A DNA stretch of 64,000 nt from Escherichia virus TH15. Positions 10,149 through 63,714 of the stretch are shown here, in pieces; within the stretch, counting starts at the first letter, position 1, and the number at the start of each line of letters is the position of its first letter. The stretch lies in the sequence record MT446392.1, one strand, 5' to 3'. Below the pieces are notes generated by a model. It was given only the letters and a program-made list of their open reading frames with translations. It was not told the DNA's origin and searched no databases. A program made the position numbers and the translations under genes.

Positions 10149-10904
10149 ATGAATTATCTAAAAATATATGAATCTTTAATAGTATCTGCTATTAAAAGAC
10201 CTCTTACACAAGGATACACCGAAAAACATCATATTTTACCGAAATCGATGGGTGGTAATGATTCTATTGATAATTTAGTTACCCTTACCGCCCGTGAACA
10301 TTTTATTGCACACTTATTATTGGCAAGAATTTTTAAGAATCGCGAAATGTGGTCCGCTGCATATATGATGGCTTCAACAAGTCTAACTAACTCGGATAGA
10401 CATAGATGCTCGTCACATTTATATGAATTATTGCGTAAACAAGCGTCGGTATATAATTCAGGTGAAAATTCTCCAAATTGGGGAATAAAACGTTCTGAAG
10501 AAACACGATTAAAAATGTCAATTTCAAAAATGGGTATCAGGAATCCAATGTACGGTATTCCACAATGTTTGGAACACTCTCATAAAATTAGCCTTGGTGT
10601 TACCGAAGCTTTTAAAAATCCAGAAATGAAAGAACGCCACCGTCAAAGTGTTTCTGGAGAGAATAATGGGTTTTATGGAAAAAAACATTCCGAAAAAAGT
10701 TTGGAAAAACAGCGGAATACAAAACGGAAAGGATTTCCTTGGGACAATTATTTGGAATTGTACCCAATTTGGGTTTCATTAAATTGCCCCAAGCATCCAA
10801 CATTCACAAATGAACTTGTTAAATTGGGATACCCCAAAAAGAAGCTTGTTCGAATAGTGGAAGAGTTTAAAAATGAATATATTCGAAATGCTACGCATAG
10901 ATGA
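10149..10904 (+). CDS. HNH homing endonuclease
   Basis: HNH motif [31 protein letters not shown]; inserted between nudE and e. Confidence 0.8.
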
Positions 10905-11361
10905 AGGTTGTAAATTAGATTTGTATAAAGATACCGAGGGGTACTATACCATTGGTATCGGGCAACTGATAACTAAGAACCCATCGAAAGATGTTGCTCG
11001 TGCCGAGCTCGACAAGCTCATGGGTCGCGTCTGTAATGGTCGCATAACCCAGCACGAAGCTGAAACATTGTTTAACCGTTCGGTCGAAAAAGCTAAAGCC
11101 GGAATATTGAGGCATCCTGTCTTAAAACCTGTTTATGATGTACTGGATGAAGTTCGTCGTTGTGCACTCATTAATATGGTATTCCAGATGGGTGTTGCCG
11201 GGGTTGCTGGTTTTCCTAAGGGACTGCGATTGCTCAAGGCCAAATCGTGGGAAGCTGCTGCTAAGGAACTGGCGGACTCAAGATGGTATAAAGTCCAGAC
11301 TCCAAACCGGGCCAAACGAGTTATTGAAACTTTCCGTACTGGAACTTTTGACGCTTATTAG
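10873..11361 (+). CDS. e: lysozyme (T4 gene e endolysin)
   Basis: Near-identity in N-terminal [12 protein letters not shown]...[13 protein letters not shown] to T4 lysozyme. Confidence 0.95.
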
Positions 11362-13537: not shown

Positions 13538-13748
13538 ATTGATTATCGAAGGTTCTGATGAAGCCTTGAAAAGATTCGTTGAATGGTTTAATGGCCCGGG
13601 CGAACAAGACTTTCTGGAAGTCTGGGACGGTGGTCAATGGAATGGTAAAGAAATGGTTTACCCAACTACCTATATCTCCGTGCAAGGGTGGACTGACAGA
13701 CTTCGTTTGGTAGAATATGATATCGCAACTGGCGAGGAAGTGAAATGA
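13530..13748 (+). CDS. hypothetical protein
   Basis: 72-aa ORF, overlapping start. Confidence 0.5.
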   Translation: MAKLIIEGSDEALKRFVEWFNGPGEQDFLEVWDGGQWNGKEMVYPTTYISVQGWTDRLRLVEYDIATGEEVK

Positions 13749-14008
13749 TTGAAGATATCAAAGGTTACAAGCCACATACCGACGATAAAATCGGTAAAGT
13801 GAACGCTATTAAAGATGCAGAAGTTCGTCTTGGATTGATGTTTGATGCTCTGATTGAAGAAGCATATATCTTGAAAGAAAATGAAACAGAGCAACAAACC
13901 AAAGAAGATATGGATGCAGTGCAGGCTCTTAAGTATGCTAAGCAACATCTAAAAGAAGCCAGCATGTGGGCATGTCGTGCAGTATTTCGACCCGAGGAAA
14001 AATACTAA
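13745..14008 (+). CDS. hypothetical protein
   Basis: 87-aa ORF, ATGA overlap. Confidence 0.5.
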
Positions 14009-14313
14009 TGGCGCAGATTAATTCTGGTTTTGGTTATGAGTTATCAACCGCTTCTCATCGCCGCATAAATGATTCCAATCCGTTTGGATTCACATCGAAA
14101 CAGCCAAAAATTCAAAGTCTAGACGATTTCCAGGAAGTTATTCGTAAGGCCTTTCAGGACTACGGGAACTATCTTAAAGAAGATTCAAACGACTGTCTTG
14201 AAGAAGATGAAATTGCTTACTACGAGCAACGCCTTGAACAGCTTAAGAATTTGCACGCTGTTCGTGCCGAAGTCTCACAATCATTAAATAAGCTAATTCG
14301 TTTTAAAGAATAG
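14008..14313 (+). CDS. hypothetical protein
   Basis: ATG 14008 after GAGGAAAAA SD. Confidence 0.5.
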
Positions 14314-14342
14314 TGTACAAGCAGGTTGAAATGAGTTATGAT
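14314..14342 (+). promoter_or_regulatory. T4-type early promoter
   Basis: -35 GTGTACA, 16-nt spacer, -10 TATGAT. Confidence 0.5.
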
Positions 14343-14369
14343 TATCCCATCAAACAAAAGGAGATAATC

Positions 14370-14828
14370 ATGACTACTATCGATTCAAGTGTTTACATTC
14401 GCCGCAATAAACTTCGTCGTATTTTTGAAACGGAGTTCCTCAAAATTAATAATGCTATCAACAAGGCTTGTAAAGAAGCAGGCCTTGAAGCATTCTTCAT
14501 TAAGTACAGTCCACACCTGTTGGACCGTGCAATCCAACGTGAAATTGACGAACAATATGTTTTTGACTTGTTTGGAAAAATCACACCACATGTAAAAGAA
14601 ATTGTTGAATTCCTGGAGATGAAACCACTCCCGGAAGTTGAAGCACAAATTGACCCGAATGTGAACTACCGTCCACTTCGTCTGGAAATCACAGACAAGA
14701 ACCTATGGTTAGGAATGACAGTTAACCCAGCTCTTCCTGGGAAGTCTCCAACCATGTGTTGTCGTATGGCGTTTGTTAACTCTAATCGTCTGGAAGGAAA
14801 AATTAGCACAAAAGTGATTTATATCTAA
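14370..14828 (+). CDS. regB: RegB endoribonuclease
   Basis: MTTIDSSVYIRRNKLRRIFETEF...HLLDRAIQREIDE matches T4 RegB; ATG 14370 after AAGGAG. Confidence 0.85.
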   Translation: MTTIDSSVYIRRNKLRRIFETEFLKINNAINKACKEAGLEAFFIKYSPHLLDRAIQREIDEQYVFDLFGKITPHVKEIVEFLEMKPLPEVEAQIDPNVNYRPLRLEITDKNLWLGMTVNPALPGKSPTMCCRMAFVNSNRLEGKISTKVIYI

Positions 14829-14838
14829 TGGGGAATTC

Positions 14839-15381
14839 ATGAAAAAAGTAATAGCCACTTTACTATTGACAGTTAGTATGTCTGCCCATAGCGTAGAGCC
14901 TACTTTCAGTAATGAACAGATGGAAAATCTTCAATATGCGTATGCATTTGGAGAACAGTTCCAGAAAAATGGTAAGTACAAAGAAAATCCGCACCAACAT
15001 AATGGTTTGGGATATATCATGGCTGGATTAACCTGGCAGGAAAGTTCTGCCGGGGTTAATACAGGATTAAATAAAGATAAGCATCATGCATATGGTATAT
15101 TCCAAAATTATCTTCCAACCGTGCGCGAGCGCGTAAAACAGGTTGGGTGGACAATGACAGATAAAGAAATAATCAAGATGATAAGCAAGAGAGAGAACAG
15201 TGCACGCTGGGCTTATATTGAGCTTTCATACTGGTTGAACATTCACAAGGGGGACATAAGAAAAACACTATCATCATATAACGCAGGGTGGAATGTGAAA
15301 GCTGGAAATACGTATGCTTCACAGGTCCTAGAAAAAGCTAACTACTTAAAATCACGAGGCCTATTAAAAACGGTGGATTAA
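14839..15381 (+). CDS. periplasmic lytic transglycosylase (SLT-like) with signal peptide
   Basis: Signal peptide MKKVIATLLLTVSMSAHS; motifs WQESSAG, AYGIFQ, SYNAGWN. Confidence 0.65.
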   Translation: MKKVIATLLLTVSMSAHSVEPTFSNEQMENLQYAYAFGEQFQKNGKYKENPHQHNGLGYIMAGLTWQESSAGVNTGLNKDKHHAYGIFQNYLPTVRERVKQVGWTMTDKEIIKMISKRENSARWAYIELSYWLNIHKGDIRKTLSSYNAGWNVKAGNTYASQVLEKANYLKSRGLLKTVD

Positions 15382-15741
15382 ATGGTAAGAGTCATAACTT
15401 TAGCCATAGGGTTAGTATTCAGCACGGGAGGAATAGCTTCAGTACAGAGCGATGATAATAATAGCATCATAGAATATGCAACGAGGACGGCCAAAGATTA
15501 TTGTGCATCAAGCAATGTGGATTGTGTAATCCAGTTTAGTGCCAAACTCACTGCTGCATATAAAGACGGTCAAAATGATGTTGAACACACTCTTATGAAA
15601 AAGAGTATTTTATCCAACAAATATGAAAAGAAACTATTTGAAATGGATTGTATTCTGTCGAGTGCCAAATATAAAGCGGCCTGCACCAGTATGGTTGACA
15701 GGTTAGTCGATTCCTATAACAGAGGATTGAACTCTAAATGA
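15382..15741 (+). CDS. hypothetical secreted protein
   Basis: 119 aa; hydrophobic signal-like N-terminus; several Cys. Confidence 0.55.
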   Translation: MVRVITLAIGLVFSTGGIASVQSDDNNSIIEYATRTAKDYCASSNVDCVIQFSAKLTAAYKDGQNDVEHTLMKKSILSNKYEKKLFEMDCILSSAKYKAACTSMVDRLVDSYNRGLNSK

Positions 15742-16202
15742 TTGTTAACTATATTAAGGGCGATATTGTCGCCCTTTTTCTCGAAGGAAACATCATAGCT
15801 CATGGCTGTAATTGTTTCCATACAATGGGTTCAGGCGTTGCTGGCCAACTGGCAAAGGCTTACCCAAAAATTTTAGAAATGGATAAGACATCAACTGAAT
15901 ACGGTTCCCGAGAAAAACTCGGTGATATGTCTATCGTTTTTAAACATAAACCAACTGGATTTGGTATGTGCTATAACCTTTATACCCAGTATGAACCGGG
16001 TCCAAATCTGGATTATGGTGCTTTAGTAAATTGCATGATAGAATTAAATCGACAAGCAGAATCCCTTTTGTTCAAGCCTGTGATTTATATTCCCAGGATT
16101 GGATGTGGTATTGCAGGTGGTGATTGGGATAAGGTTTCCCGGTTAATTGATATGTTTACTCCTGACATTGATTTGATAGTGGTGGATTATGAGTCAAACT
16201 AG
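15738..16202 (+). CDS. macro-domain-like protein (putative ADP-ribose binding/hydrolase)
   Basis: GDIV...GNIIAHGCN...GSGVAGQL and IPRIGCGIAGG resemble macro-domain motifs. Confidence 0.55.
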   Translation: MIVNYIKGDIVALFLEGNIIAHGCNCFHTMGSGVAGQLAKAYPKILEMDKTSTEYGSREKLGDMSIVFKHKPTGFGMCYNLYTQYEPGPNLDYGALVNCMIELNRQAESLLFKPVIYIPRIGCGIAGGDWDKVSRLIDMFTPDIDLIVVDYESN

Positions 16203-16586: not shown

Positions 16587-17159
16587 ATGGCGAGTTTAAT
16601 TTATCATTACGCAGCAATGAATGCAGGCAAAACAGCTTCATTGCTGACTGCAGCTTATTCCTATAAAGAGCGTGGAATGAGTGTGCTTTTGCTAAAACCT
16701 GTTATTGATAATCGGGACTCGGAATCTGAAATTAAATCACGTATTGGTATTAGCCAGGAAGCAAACCTGGTAACGGCCGACATGAACCTGTTTGAATTCT
16801 ATAAATGGGCCGAGTCTCAAAAGGATATCCATTGTGTCCTGGTTGATGAAGCTCAATTTTTGTTACCAGAGCAAATTGACCAGTTAGCACGAGTGGTTGA
16901 TAATTACAATATCCCCGTTATGTGTTACGGGTTAAGAACAGATTTTCGGGGTCAATTATTTCCCGGTTCAGCCAGACTTCTGGCTATTTCGGATAAACTG
17001 GTTGAATTAAAGGGCGTCTGCCATTGCGGCCGGAAAGCAACCATGACCGCTCGAGTAATCGACGGTGCTGCTGTAAAGGACGGCGAGCAAGTGTTAGTCG
17101 GTGGGAATGAATCGTACGTATCTTTATGCAGGAAACATTGGCTCGAATTGACAAGCTGA
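16587..17159 (+). CDS. tk: thymidine kinase
   Basis: P-loop NAGKTASLL, VDEAQF, C-terminal CHCGRKAT zinc ribbon. Confidence 0.95.
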   Translation: MASLIYHYAAMNAGKTASLLTAAYSYKERGMSVLLLKPVIDNRDSESEIKSRIGISQEANLVTADMNLFEFYKWAESQKDIHCVLVDEAQFLLPEQIDQLARVVDNYNIPVMCYGLRTDFRGQLFPGSARLLAISDKLVELKGVCHCGRKATMTARVIDGAAVKDGEQVLVGGNESYVSLCRKHWLELTS

Positions 17160-17166
17160 GGTCCTT

Positions 17167-17442
17167 ATGATATATAAGATTTGGACGTATATCTCTATTT
17201 TTGTTATTGCTGGAATTGCATTTATCCCCACACAAACAGATAGCGAGAGATATGAAAGGGAAATTGAAATAGTAGCAAGCACGTACCATTCTGTTAATAA
17301 AGAATGCCCGAATAAAAATGGAATAAATTTACAAAAAGCACATTATATGCTGACTGTTACTAGCCCAGTGCAAAGAATATGGGTTGATAGACATTTTTCT
17401 GATTTATTTGCAATATATTGTTTCAAGTTTAAAAGATTATAA
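17167..17442 (+). CDS. hypothetical membrane-anchored protein
   Basis: 91 aa, N-terminal TM helix. Confidence 0.5.
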   Translation: MIYKIWTYISIFVIAGIAFIPTQTDSERYEREIEIVASTYHSVNKECPNKNGINLQKAHYMLTVTSPVQRIWVDRHFSDLFAIYCFKFKRL

Positions 17443-17445: not shown

Positions 17446-17516
17446 CAGTTACTAACTAGTATTCCGCTATGTTAAGGCTGCAAAGCGTAATCATGACCAA
17501 CAATAAGGAGTCCTTT

Positions 17517-17813
17517 ATGGACCTTATTCGAGGACTTTCTCTAAGTCTATTACTAATGGGCTGTTTAGGCCCAAATCTGTCCTCTGCTACAGATGGTAAA
17601 TTTACCCAGTATGCAGATAGTGCGATGCAAATCTATTCGCAATTCAAAGAACCCAGCGTCGAGCAGTCCGAACAATTTTGGGCTTTTATTAAAACCGAAT
17701 GGAACAATAAGAGTCAATGTGTAAATGAAATCACATGTCAAATTGATGGCCGGGCTGCTGCAGTCGAATACGCTAAATTAATGAAGGTAAAATTGGAAGA
17801 TGAAATTCGATGA
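17517..17813 (+). CDS. rI: lysis inhibition regulator rI
   Basis: Signal-anchor then EQSEQFWAF...AAAVEYAKLMKVKLEDE resembles T4 rI; position next to tk. Confidence 0.75.
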   Translation: MDLIRGLSLSLLLMGCLGPNLSSATDGKFTQYADSAMQIYSQFKEPSVEQSEQFWAFIKTEWNNKSQCVNEITCQIDGRAAAVEYAKLMKVKLEDEIR

Positions 17814-63453: not shown

Positions 63454-63714
63454 ATGAAATATATTAATCGTTCTATCGCCGGGCTGGTTTTGGCTGTTTC
63501 ATTGGCTGGTTGTACTGACGCAGATAATGCCGTTCGTGTATTAGATGCAAACGGCTATGAGCAAATCCAAATCACCGGATATAACTGGTTTGGATGCTCT
63601 AAAGATGATTTCCAGCATACTGGTTTTACAGCAGTGGGTCCAACTGGTAAGAAAGTTGAAGGAACTGTTTGTTCTGGATTGTTGCTCAAGAACAGTACCA
63701 TCCGATTTGAATAA
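63454..63714 (+). CDS. putative lipoprotein
   Basis: Signal peptide with lipobox LAGC. Confidence 0.55.
   Translation: MKYINRSIAGLVLAVSLAGCTDADNAVRVLDANGYEQIQITGYNWFGCSKDDFQHTGFTAVGPTGKKVEGTVCSGLLLKNSTIRFE

What the first reader, a model, noticed from the sequence alone, without database searches (positions are those of the whole stretch)
14839..15741. Signal-peptide lytic transglycosylase plus a secreted partner, separate from the endolysin
ORF 14839..15381 has a cleavable signal peptide and the three family-1 lytic transglycosylase motifs (ES in WQESSAG, GxxQ in AYGIFQ, AYNAG-like SYNAGWN). The next ORF is also predicted secreted and Cys-rich. The canonical endolysin e is present elsewhere, so this exported enzyme may act on peptidoglycan from the periplasm during infection rather than at lysis.
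Basis: partly seen in the sequence, partly recalled or inferred. Interest (0 to 1): 0.45.

Follow-up and report, generated by a model that had tools for sequence, protein, structure and literature searches.

The report
T4 vs.1 transglycosylase and exported Vs
These two genes are the already catalogued T4-type genes vs.1 (an exported cell-wall-cutting enzyme of the SLT type) and vs, ordinary for this phage group, except that vs, long labelled a modifier of a cytoplasmic tRNA synthetase, looks by sequence like a protein that is exported from the cytoplasm.

Summary
ORF 14839-15381 and ORF 15382-15741 are 100% identical to Vs.1 and Vs of the T4-like Escherichia phage VR7.

- **Vs.1:** it has a Sec-type signal peptide and all four family-1 lytic transglycosylase motifs, which are invariant in 33 homologues. 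Its model matches Slt, MltD and goose lysozyme. The SLT similarity of vs.1 was published in 2006.
- **Endolysin:** gene e lies at 10873-11361. In T4 transposon data e is essential and vs.1 is not, so Vs.1 is an accessory enzyme.
- **The "secreted partner":** Its export signal is nevertheless conserved across the family (one remote homologue has a lipoprotein box). It has four invariant cysteines that would staple two helical hairpins, and its fold is uninformative.
- **Linkage:** vs always follows vs.1, even where flanking genes differ, but vs.1 also occurs widely without vs.

The proposed timing (during infection rather than at lysis) and any Vs.1-Vs interaction are untested. The finding itself is already known. 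The unresolved conflict between Vs export and its cytoplasmic label is the only point of interest.

The parts
14839..15381 (+). vs.1 orthologue: 180-aa exported single-domain SLT-type (GH23, family-1-like) lytic transglycosylase
   Evidence: ORF. It is 100% identical to VR7 Vs.1 and matches phrog_600 at 1.9e-67. Pfam SLT scores 14.7 bits here, below the cut-off, but all 33 aligned homologues hit SLT, best 1.3e-7. The AF2 model has pLDDT 84, and its best Foldseek PDB hits are Slt, MltD and goose lysozyme.
14839..14892 (+). predicted Sec (type I) signal peptide of Vs.1, residues 1-18 (MKKVIATLLLTVSMSAHS|VEP)
   Evidence: Heuristic n/h/c-region analysis; the pattern is conserved in all 33 homologues although the sequence varies. 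SignalP was not available.
15034..15054 (+). motif I, WQESSAG, containing the presumed catalytic Glu68 followed by Ser69
   Evidence: W66, E68, S69 and S70 are invariant. hhalign places this motif on the IESGGN segment of E. coli EmtA, though that score is not significant.
15088..15108 (+). motif II, AYGIFQN (G-x-x-Q)
   Evidence: G86, Q89 and N90 are invariant.
15274..15294 (+). motif III, SYNAGWN (A/S-Y-N-A-G)
   Evidence: Y147, N148, A149 and G150 are invariant.
15313..15327 (+). motif IV, YASQV (Y-x-x-x-V)
   Evidence: Y159 is invariant and V163 is present in at least 90% of sequences.
15382..15741 (+). vs orthologue ('valyl-tRNA synthetase modifier' family, PF26829 / phrog_1256): 119-aa predicted exported four-helix protein
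   Evidence: It is 100% identical to VR7 Vs and 45% identical to T4 Vs, and matches phrog_1256 at 1.3e-32. Homologues carry PF26829, ValRS_modifier. The AF2 model has four helices (24-40, 46-69, 74-90, 95-116) and an unstructured N-terminus with pLDDT below 50.
15382..15441 (+). predicted signal peptide of Vs, residues 1-19/20 (MVRVITLAIGLVFSTGGIAS|VQS)
   Evidence: The pattern is conserved across the family. T4 Vs has MTKILVLCIGLISFSASASA|DTS. The remote homologue P0121 has a lipobox, ALSGC.
15502..15525 (+). Cys41-x6-Cys48 pair at the helix 1 / helix 2 turn of Vs
   Evidence: Both cysteines are present in 90% or more of homologues. The disulfide is inferred, not measured.
15649..15684 (+). 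Cys90-x10-Cys101 pair at the helix 3 / helix 4 turn of Vs
   Evidence: Both cysteines are invariant. The disulfide is inferred.
10873..11361 (+). context: canonical T4-type endolysin e, with no signal peptide
   Evidence: The translation begins [12 protein letters not shown].... Pfam Phage_lysozyme matches at 5.9e-12.
14370..14828 (+). context: regB endoribonuclease, the gene immediately upstream
   Evidence: Pfam REGB_T4 matches at 5.7e-72. The likely true start is the ATG at 14370, which has an AAGGAG Shine-Dalgarno sequence.
15738..16202 (+). context: tk.4 macrodomain gene (T4 AdfM, anti-DarTG2), whose start overlaps the vs stop
   Evidence: Pfam Macro matches at 1.4e-8. The function in T4 comes from the HIDEN-SEQ preprint.
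17469..17813 (+). context: rI antiholin, 1.7 kb downstream, preceded by a late-promoter box at 17438
   Evidence: Pfam Antiholin matches at 5.2e-30. The TATAAATA box is reported.

Best explanation
The two ORFs are the orthologues of T4 genes vs.1 and vs in a VR7-like (Gaprivervirus) T4-type phage.

**Vs.1 (well supported by sequence).**
- It is made as a 180-aa precursor and exported through Sec. Signal peptidase I would cleave it after about residue 18.
- The released product is a soluble periplasmic single-domain enzyme of about 18 kDa of the GH23 / family-1 lytic transglycosylase type.
- Inferred from the family: Glu68 acts as the single acid/base catalyst. It cleaves the MurNAc-GlcNAc bond of murein and forms 1,6-anhydroMurNAc ends.

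**Role of Vs.1 (inferred).**
- It is an accessory enzyme, not the lysis enzyme. The cytoplasmic, holin-dependent endolysin E is encoded 3.5 kb upstream. In T4, E is essential and vs.1 is dispensable.
- It sits in the prereplicative regB-tk block with no late promoter. It is therefore most likely present in the periplasm well before lysis, where it would loosen or remodel the sacculus and give a modest, host-dependent fitness gain.

**Vs (exported by sequence; its role is inferred).**
- It is predicted to be a small four-helix protein whose two helical hairpins are each closed by a conserved cysteine pair.
- Export is strongly suggested by sequence.
- The idea that it works in the periplasm as a partner or restrainer of Vs.1 is a minority reading that I favour only as a hypothesis.
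- Its historical label is a factor that binds cytoplasmic valyl-tRNA synthetase. That label rests on classical T4 genetics and biochemistry and was not tested here.
For: **Identity.** Both proteins are 100% identical to those of VR7. The regB-vs.1-vs-tk.4 order is kept in 27 of 27 IMG/VR loci and in T4.

**Enzyme.**
- Four invariant family-1 motifs.
- All 33 homologues hit Pfam SLT, best 1.3e-7.
- About 20 of 89 homologues carry a precomputed PF01464 hit.
- The AF2 model has pLDDT 84. The 13 best Foldseek PDB hits are lytic transglycosylases or goose lysozyme, with probability up to 1.00 and E about 0.06.

**Export.**
- The n/h/c signal-peptide pattern is present in all Vs.1 homologues and in nearly all Vs homologues.
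- T4 Vs has ...SASASA|D.
- The remote homologue P0121 has a lipobox and lies in the same synteny.
- Four cysteines are conserved in Vs.
- The N-terminus is unstructured in the model.
- N-terminally His-tagged T4 Vs is insoluble in the cytoplasm (PMC8076793).

**Accessory role.** In T4 HIDEN-SEQ data:
- e is essential (4 of 45 TA sites hit), whereas vs.1 (46 of 52) and vs (30 of 32) are non-essential.
- Both vs.1 and vs have about 10-fold lower counts than their neighbours in LB competition.
- vs is depleted in M9 (log2FC -2.19).
- vs.1 is significantly depleted on the clinical strain CFE299 (log2FC -1.20, adjusted p 0.015).

**Timing.** There is no TATAAATA box near the pair.

**Coupling.** vs.1-vs stays start/stop-coupled in distant T4-likes whose flanking genes differ.
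Against: **Enzyme evidence is indirect.**
- No enzymology exists for any Vs.1.
- The Pfam score of this particular sequence is below the gathering cut-off (14.7 against 21.3).
- Foldseek E-values are weak and TM-scores are about 0.5.
- A profile search of PDB sequences and hhalign against EmtA were not significant.

**Export evidence is heuristic.** The signal peptides come from my heuristic, not from SignalP or experiment.

**Timing evidence is thin.** It is inferred only from gene context and the absence of a late box.

**The partner idea is weak on several counts.**
- vs.1 occurs in 2072 phage records and vs in 795. Vs.1 homologues in Kuttervirus, Felixounavirus, Aeromonas phage 25 and contig L038 lack vs.
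- Classical work (my knowledge of it; the papers are not held) shows that T4 vs acts on valyl-tRNA synthetase in vivo.
- The M9-specific defect of the vs deletion fits an amino-acid-supply role at least as well.
- The low counts for vs.1 insertions could be partly polar effects on vs.
Confidence: 0.6

Rival explanations
1. Vs is what its annotation says: a cytoplasmic peptide that binds host valyl-tRNA synthetase. It is functionally unrelated to Vs.1, and the adjacency is only inherited T4 synteny. The hydrophobic N-terminus would then be inefficiently used or have another role. This rival concerns only the second ORF and is compatible with Vs.1 being an exported transglycosylase.
For: - The family is named ValRS_modifier (PF26829, phrog_1256).
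- Classical T4 genetics and biochemistry support this role (cited in PMC8076793; the rest is from my own knowledge).
- Deleting T4 vs impairs growth specifically in minimal medium, where aminoacylation supply matters.
- Vs.1 is found in many phages without Vs.
- The whole regB-vs.1-vs block is syntenic.
Against: - The tripartite signal peptide is conserved throughout the family, and a type II (lipobox) version occurs in a remote member.
- Four conserved cysteines sit at the two helical-hairpin turns, which is typical of oxidising compartments.
- The N-terminally tagged protein is insoluble in the cytoplasm.
- I could not retrieve the evidence that ties the genetic vs locus to this particular ORF.
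Confidence: 0.4
2. Vs.1 is a second endolysin that works at lysis. It would be placed in the periplasm beforehand and kept harmless, perhaps by the energised membrane or by Vs. It would then contribute to wall breakdown once the holin fires, as proposed for Kayvirus Tgl.
For: - Kayvirus Tgl is a Sec-secreted protein with lytic transglycosylase motifs. It is transcribed early and encoded a few genes from the main endolysin (PMC7150955).
- Vs.1 homologues lie directly after e in L038 and within about 1 kb of rI in L036 and L037. In Felixounavirus they lie after rIIA/rIIB and 1.2 kb before the spanins, where they are annotated 'lysin'.
Against: - T4 e is essential and vs.1 is not, so any contribution to lysis is minor.
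- There is no late promoter near vs.1.
- No lysis phenotype has been reported for vs.1 in the papers I could search.
Confidence: 0.25
3. The pair serves phage-phage or phage-host conflict rather than wall remodelling for the phage's own cycle. Examples would be altering murein to hinder superinfecting phages, or coping with particular host envelopes.
For: - The neighbourhood is rich in counter-defence genes. The vs.4 orthologue has an Acb2/Tad1 hairpin domain, and tk.4 is AdfM, an anti-DarTG2 factor.
- vs.1 mutants are selectively depleted on the clinical strain CFE299.
- T4 already uses a small periplasmic protein, Spackle, against the gp5 lysozyme of incoming phages (my knowledge).
Against: - The evidence is contextual only.
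- No similarity to Spackle or to any defence or anti-defence family was found.
Confidence: 0.15
4. Vs.1 is a catalytically dead murein-binding protein.
For: - The Pfam score is below the cut-off.
- No activity data exist.
Against: The catalytic Glu-Ser and the other three motifs are invariant across homologues down to 41% identity, and also in the Kuttervirus and Felixounavirus relatives.
Confidence: 0.05

Closest known systems
T4 Vs.1 (phrog_600; GenBank 'transglycosylase SLT domain-containing protein')
   Same: It is the orthologue: 66% identical to T4 Vs.1 and 100% to VR7 Vs.1. It has the same position after regB, the same signal peptide and the same motifs.
   Different: Nothing of substance differs. 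The function of the T4 protein is itself untested beyond being dispensable.
Family-1 lytic transglycosylases of bacteria (Slt70, MltC, MltD, EmtA/MltE; Pfam SLT PF01464, GH23)
   Same: It has the four sequence motifs and a lysozyme-like helical fold, and it is periplasmic.
   Different: It is very divergent: below the Pfam cut-off for this sequence, with no significant match to PDB sequences. It is a single domain with no lipid anchor, no LysM domain and no superhelical domain. It is encoded by a virulent phage.
Kayvirus Tgl (Staphylococcus phages)
   Same: It is a phage-encoded, Sec-secreted protein with lytic transglycosylase motifs. It is transcribed like an early gene and is separate from, but near, the main endolysin.
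   Different: It belongs to a different sequence family (IsaA/SceD-like) and acts in a Gram-positive host. Its activity was shown experimentally, and it has no downstream exported partner.
SAR and signal-peptide endolysins (P1 Lyz, phage 21 R, fOg44 Lys44)
   Same: A muralytic enzyme is exported by Sec before lysis (my knowledge).
   Different: In those phages it is the only endolysin. Here the holin-dependent E is present and essential. The h-region of Vs.1 is short and is followed by a small-x-small cleavage site, so it is not a SAR anchor.
T4 Vs, the 'valyl-tRNA synthetase modifier' (PF26829, phrog_1256)
   Same: ORF 2 is its orthologue: 45% identical, same position and same four cysteines.
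   Different: The label implies a cytoplasmic site of action, whereas every family member carries an export signal.
Periplasmic enzyme-inhibitor pairs (T4 Spackle with gp5 lysozyme; type VI Tge/Tgi glycoside-hydrolase effector-immunity pairs)
   Same: A small exported protein is encoded next to a lysozyme-fold enzyme. It evolves faster than the enzyme: 41-61% identity against 64-78%. In one remote homologue it is a lipoprotein.
   Different: No homology or fold match was found to Spackle or to any immunity protein. Binding was not tested. Vs.1 is often found without Vs.

Membership tests
Family-1 lytic transglycosylase (GH23, SLT domain) | Motif I: catalytic Glu followed by Ser | tested here: met
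   E68-S69 lies within WQESSAG and is invariant in 33 homologues.
Family-1 lytic transglycosylase (GH23, SLT domain) | Motif II: G-x-x-Q | tested here: met
   G86-I-F-Q89; G86 and Q89 are invariant.
Family-1 lytic transglycosylase (GH23, SLT domain) | Motif III: A/S-Y-N-A-G | tested here: met
   S146-Y-N-A-G150; Y147, N148, A149 and G150 are invariant.
Family-1 lytic transglycosylase (GH23, SLT domain) | Motif IV: Y-x-x-x-V/I downstream of motif III | tested here: met
   Y159-A-S-Q-V163; Y159 is invariant and V163 is present in at least 90% of sequences. The definition of the motif is from my knowledge of the family.
Family-1 lytic transglycosylase (GH23, SLT domain) | Pfam SLT (PF01464) score above the gathering cut-off | tested here: inconclusive
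   This sequence scores 14.7 bits against a cut-off of 21.3. All 33 homologues match at E of 1 or less, best 1.3e-7, and about 20 of 89 homologues carry the precomputed domain.
Family-1 lytic transglycosylase (GH23, SLT domain) | Lysozyme-like helical fold | tested here: met
   The AF2 model has pLDDT 84. The top 13 Foldseek PDB hits are Slt, MltD or goose lysozyme, with probability 0.54-1.00. However E is 0.06 or worse and TM-score is about 0.5.
Family-1 lytic transglycosylase (GH23, SLT domain) | Non-hydrolytic cleavage giving 1,6-anhydroMurNAc | not testable with these tools
   This needs enzymology on sacculi.
Sec-exported protein with a type I signal peptide (both ORFs) | Basic n-region, uncharged h-region of 10-15 residues, and small-x-small cleavage site at about residues 17-23 | tested here: met
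   My heuristic scan shows the pattern in both ORFs and across both families. Only 5 of 134 window ORFs pass. SignalP was not available.
ValRS_modifier family (PF26829 / phrog_1256), ORF 2 | Sequence membership | tested here: met
   phrog_1256 matches at 1.3e-32. ORF 2 is 45% identical to T4 Vs. Homologues carry PF26829.
ValRS_modifier family (PF26829 / phrog_1256), ORF 2 | Binds cytoplasmic valyl-tRNA synthetase | not testable with these tools
   The predicted export is in tension with this, but nothing here measures binding or location.
SAR endolysin | Weakly hydrophobic, uncleaved N-terminal anchor of about 20 residues rich in Gly, Ala and Ser, in an enzyme that is the phage's lysis enzyme | tested here: not met
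   The Vs.1 h-region is about 10-12 residues and is followed by a cleavage-type site. A separate endolysin e is present and is essential in T4.
Periplasmic enzyme-inhibitor (effector-immunity-like) pair | A small exported protein encoded next to the enzyme | tested here: met
   The genes are start/stop-coupled. They are adjacent in 27 of 27 loci and in distant contigs with different flanking genes.
Periplasmic enzyme-inhibitor (effector-immunity-like) pair | The enzyme does not occur without its cognate partner | tested here: not met
   Vs.1 homologues occur without Vs in Kuttervirus, Felixounavirus, Aeromonas phage 25 and L038.
Periplasmic enzyme-inhibitor (effector-immunity-like) pair | Direct binding and inhibition | not testable with these tools

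The most novel reading that the evidence does not exclude
The protein that has carried the name 'valyl-tRNA synthetase modifier' since the T4 genome was annotated is really a periplasmic, disulfide-stapled protein. Its job would be to restrain or direct the exported transglycosylase Vs.1, making the pair a phage-encoded enzyme-inhibitor module in the host periplasm. In that case either the genetic vs function was assigned to the wrong ORF, or binding to the synthetase is a secondary or in-extract property. The minimal-medium defect of the T4 vs deletion would then come from unrestrained Vs.1 and should disappear in a vs.1 vs double deletion.
Probability: 0.2. Interest if true: 0.65.

Novelty: already known. 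Interest (0 to 1): 0.33.

Why it matters
The finding as written matters little. It re-discovers T4 vs.1, whose SLT similarity has been in the literature since the 2000s and is in GenBank annotations, together with its neighbour vs.

Two points are still open.
- **No function for Vs.1.** No one has shown what an early-made periplasmic transglycosylase does for a phage that already has an essential endolysin. It is conserved in about 2000 sequenced phages of three groups (Straboviridae, Ackermannviridae, Felixounavirus).
- **The Vs conflict.** The Vs family looks exported throughout, which conflicts with a cytoplasmic target. I found this conflict in no paper I could search.

Recent T4 transposon data give both genes measurable, condition-dependent fitness effects. 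Both questions can therefore now be tested with simple deletions and fractionation.

Tried and rejected
**Searches on Vs that found nothing**
- Homology between Vs and the RI antiholin (both have a short C-x5/6-C spacing): hhalign probability 0.8%, rejected.
- Any Pfam or NCBIfam family, including lysozyme-inhibitor families: only noise.
- A profile search of 1.84 billion representative proteins with the Vs alignment: only 8 hits, none in a family of known function. The ones I read or placed (P0119-P0122) look like Vs relatives, and P0121 lies in T4-like synteny.

**Searches on Vs.1 that found nothing**
- PDB sequence searches with the single sequence and with the profile: nothing significant.
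- hhalign of the Vs.1 profile against E. coli EmtA: it aligns the catalytic motifs but is not significant.
- Vs.1 relatives on plasmids (specialised transglycosylases of secretion systems): no tblastn hit at E of 0.01 or less.

**Idea rejected**
- I asked whether the beta-hairpin insertion in Vs.1 (residues about 40-57) marks phages that also have Vs. Contig L036 lacks the insertion but has Vs.

**Promoters**
- The sigma-70 scan gave no more sites than shuffled sequence.
- No MotA-box or late box lies upstream of vs.1.

**Papers not held**
- Miller 2003, Mueller & Marchin 1975 and 1977, and Valerie 1986 could not be read. I therefore could not check how the genetic vs locus was tied to this ORF.
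Full report
**What is there**

The window is part of a T4-like phage of the VR7 group (Gaprivervirus). A 4-kb stretch around the finding is 95-98% identical to phages TH40, UPEC01, VR20 and VR7. Both ORFs are 100% identical at the protein level to Vs.1 and Vs of Escherichia phage vB_EcoM_VR7.

The local gene order matches T4. From upstream to downstream it is:
- e (endolysin, 10873-11361), denV and internal-protein genes;
- a vs.4-like Acb2/Tad1 gene (13745-14008);
- regB (to 14828);
- vs.1 (14839-15381) and vs (15382-15741);
- the tk.4 macrodomain gene (15738-16202);
- tk (16587-17159) and rI (17469-17813).

**Check of the observation**

The ORFs and the quoted motifs are at the stated coordinates. 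In an alignment of 33 homologues going down to 41% identity, these residues are invariant: E68, S69, S70, G86, Q89, N90, Y147, N148, A149, G150 and Y159. The motif definitions are from my knowledge of the family.

SignalP was not available, so I used a simple n/h/c-region test.
- All 33 Vs.1 homologues have a basic N-terminus, an uncharged hydrophobic core and a small-x-small site at residues 16-23. So do the Vs homologues, apart from two with shortened N-termini. The sequence itself varies freely, as expected for signal peptides.
- Only 5 of 134 non-overlapping + strand ORFs in the window pass the test, and these two are neighbours.
- 'Cys-rich' is too strong. Vs has four cysteines, all conserved.

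**Vs.1**

- Pfam SLT is below the cut-off for this sequence (14.7 against 21.3 bits).
- All 33 aligned homologues hit SLT, best 1.3e-7. About 20 of 89 database homologues carry the precomputed domain.
- An AlphaFold2 model (pLDDT 84) finds lytic transglycosylases (Slt of P. aeruginosa, MltD, Slt70) and goose lysozyme as its 13 best PDB matches. Foldseek probability reaches 1.00, but E-values are only 0.06 or worse and TM-scores are about 0.5.
- Sequence searches of the PDB, an hhalign against E. coli EmtA and a tblastn of plasmids gave nothing significant. This is a very divergent, phage-restricted branch.
- The SLT similarity of vs.1 is already published (Nolan et al. 2006, PMC1524935, which cites the 2003 T4 genome review). 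It also appears in GenBank annotations.
- The family is in 2072 phage records. These include Kuttervirus (Ackermannviridae) and Felixounavirus phages, which keep the signal peptide and the motifs.

**Vs**

ORF 2 belongs to phrog_1256 / PF26829, 'ValRS_modifier'. It is 45% identical to T4 Vs.

Several features point to export.
- T4 Vs begins MTKILVLCIGLISFSASASA|DTS, a textbook Sec signal.
- A remote homologue found by a profile search of 1.84 billion proteins has a lipoprotein box (ALSGC). It lies in the same regB-vs.1-vs synteny.
- The model shows four helices. The conserved cysteine pairs (C41-x6-C48 and C90-x10-C101) sit at the two hairpin turns, and the N-terminal 23 residues are unstructured. 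The disulfides are my inference.
- An N-terminally tagged full-length T4 Vs was insoluble in the E. coli cytoplasm (PMC8076793).

No fold or family relative of known function was found, and RI is not related.

Sequence therefore says 'exported', while the name implies a cytoplasmic target. I could not retrieve the old papers that tie the genetic vs locus to this ORF. I also found no paper that comments on the conflict.

**Are the two genes a pair?**

For:
- vs follows vs.1 in 27 of 27 IMG/VR loci.
- It also follows vs.1 in distant T4-like contigs where the flanking genes differ. L036 has vs.1, vs, a secreted 141-aa protein, a 97-aa membrane protein and rI. L037 has vs.1, vs and rI.
- Vs evolves faster than Vs.1: 41-61% identity against 64-78%.

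Against:
- Vs.1 is common without Vs.
- regB is co-inherited with the pair as well.

**Experimental data from T4**

All figures come from the HIDEN-SEQ preprint 10.1101/2025.11.20.689424 and its Extended Data Table 6.
- e is essential (4 of 45 TA sites hit). vs.1 (46 of 52) and vs (30 of 32) are not.
- In LB competition both vs.1 and vs have mean counts of about 23-27, against 130-770 for their neighbours.
- In M9, vs is the strongest hit (log2FC -2.19). vs.1 goes the same way but is not significant (-0.87, adjusted p 0.155).
- On the clinical strain CFE299, vs.1 is significantly depleted (-1.20, adjusted p 0.015) while vs is not. This result is not discussed in the preprint text.
- Polar effects of vs.1 insertions on vs cannot be excluded.

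**Mechanism**

Shown by sequence:
- Vs.1 is an exported, single-domain SLT-type enzyme with an intact catalytic set.
- Vs is an exported small helical protein.
- A separate endolysin exists.

Inferred:
- Vs.1 cuts murein glycan strands in the periplasm as an accessory enzyme.
- It is made from the prereplicative block. No late box TATAAATA lies nearer than 17438, in front of rI.

Whether it acts before lysis or at lysis is open. The nearest experimental precedent is Kayvirus Tgl, a secreted, early-transcribed protein with transglycosylase motifs encoded near the main endolysin. It is interpreted as a second lysin acting with the holin (PMC7150955). Consistent with that, vs.1 sits beside e, rI or the spanins in several other phages.

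For Vs I consider two readings. The first is the classical cytoplasmic ValRS modifier, which I rate at about 0.4. The second is a periplasmic partner or restrainer of Vs.1, at about 0.2. A vs.1 vs double deletion and a Vs lacking its signal peptide would separate them.

**Verdict**

The 'partner' is the annotated vs gene. The timing claim is untested. The only part a T4 specialist might find surprising is the family-wide export signature of the so-called valyl-tRNA synthetase modifier.

Noticed in passing
window 10149-10904 (+), overlapping e at 10873: An HNH/NUMOD3 homing-endonuclease ORF (NUMOD3 2.2e-13) lies between nudE and the endolysin gene. Its end overlaps the start of e by 32 nt. UPEC01 has no gene at this position.
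   Followed up: partly
window 13745-14008 (+): This 87-aa ORF has an Acb2/Tad1 hairpin domain (6.2e-18). It is probably the vs.4-type anti-CBASS sponge, two genes upstream of regB.
   Followed up: partly
window 15738-16202 (+): This macrodomain gene is the orthologue of T4 tk.4, recently named AdfM (anti-DarTG2) in the HIDEN-SEQ preprint. Its identity pattern across loci is mosaic relative to vs.1/vs. In L031/L032, for example, tk.4 is 92% identical but vs only 41-44%. This points to recombination breakpoints at the vs/tk.4 junction.
   Followed up: partly
window 14313-14828 (+): The mechanical ORF for regB starts at GTG 14313. However, the Pfam match begins at residue 23, and an ATG at 14370 has an AAGGAG Shine-Dalgarno sequence. 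The real start is probably 14370.
   Followed up: partly
window 63454-63714 (+): This 86-aa ORF has a lipoprotein-type signal (…SLAGC|TD). It has no Pfam match and its function was not examined.
   Followed up: no
window 17167-17442 (+) and 17438: This 91-aa ORF has an N-terminal membrane anchor (phrog_6298) and lies just upstream of rI. The only late-promoter box (TATAAATA) in the 12-18 kb region sits at its 3' end, in front of rI.
   Followed up: no
GenBank records under hits H36, H40, H46, H47, H51; H38, H39: Vs.1 homologues are mislabelled in several phage records. Labels include 'endoribonuclease', 'protein RegB' (apparently carried over from the neighbouring gene) and 'C-type lysozyme/alpha-lactalbumin family protein'.
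   Followed up: no
L003 2064-2597 (Aeromonas phage 25): The annotated vs.1 CDS lacks the signal peptide and has an unrelated C-terminus, while the tblastn match covers 2001-2459. This is probably a frameshift or a mis-called start in the record.
   Followed up: no
L036 2501-4347 (ENA metagenome contig, 154.6 kb): Five consecutive exported or membrane proteins lie here: Vs.1, Vs, a 141-aa protein with a signal peptide, a 97-aa membrane protein and RI antiholin. Together they form a compact 'envelope' cluster in a distant T4-like phage.
   Followed up: partly
HIDEN-SEQ preprint, Extended Data Table 6, sheet S9: T4 vs.1 is one of the 11 genes significantly depleted on clinical E. coli strain CFE299 (log2FC -1.20, adjusted p 0.015). 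It is not mentioned in the main text of the preprint.
   Followed up: partly
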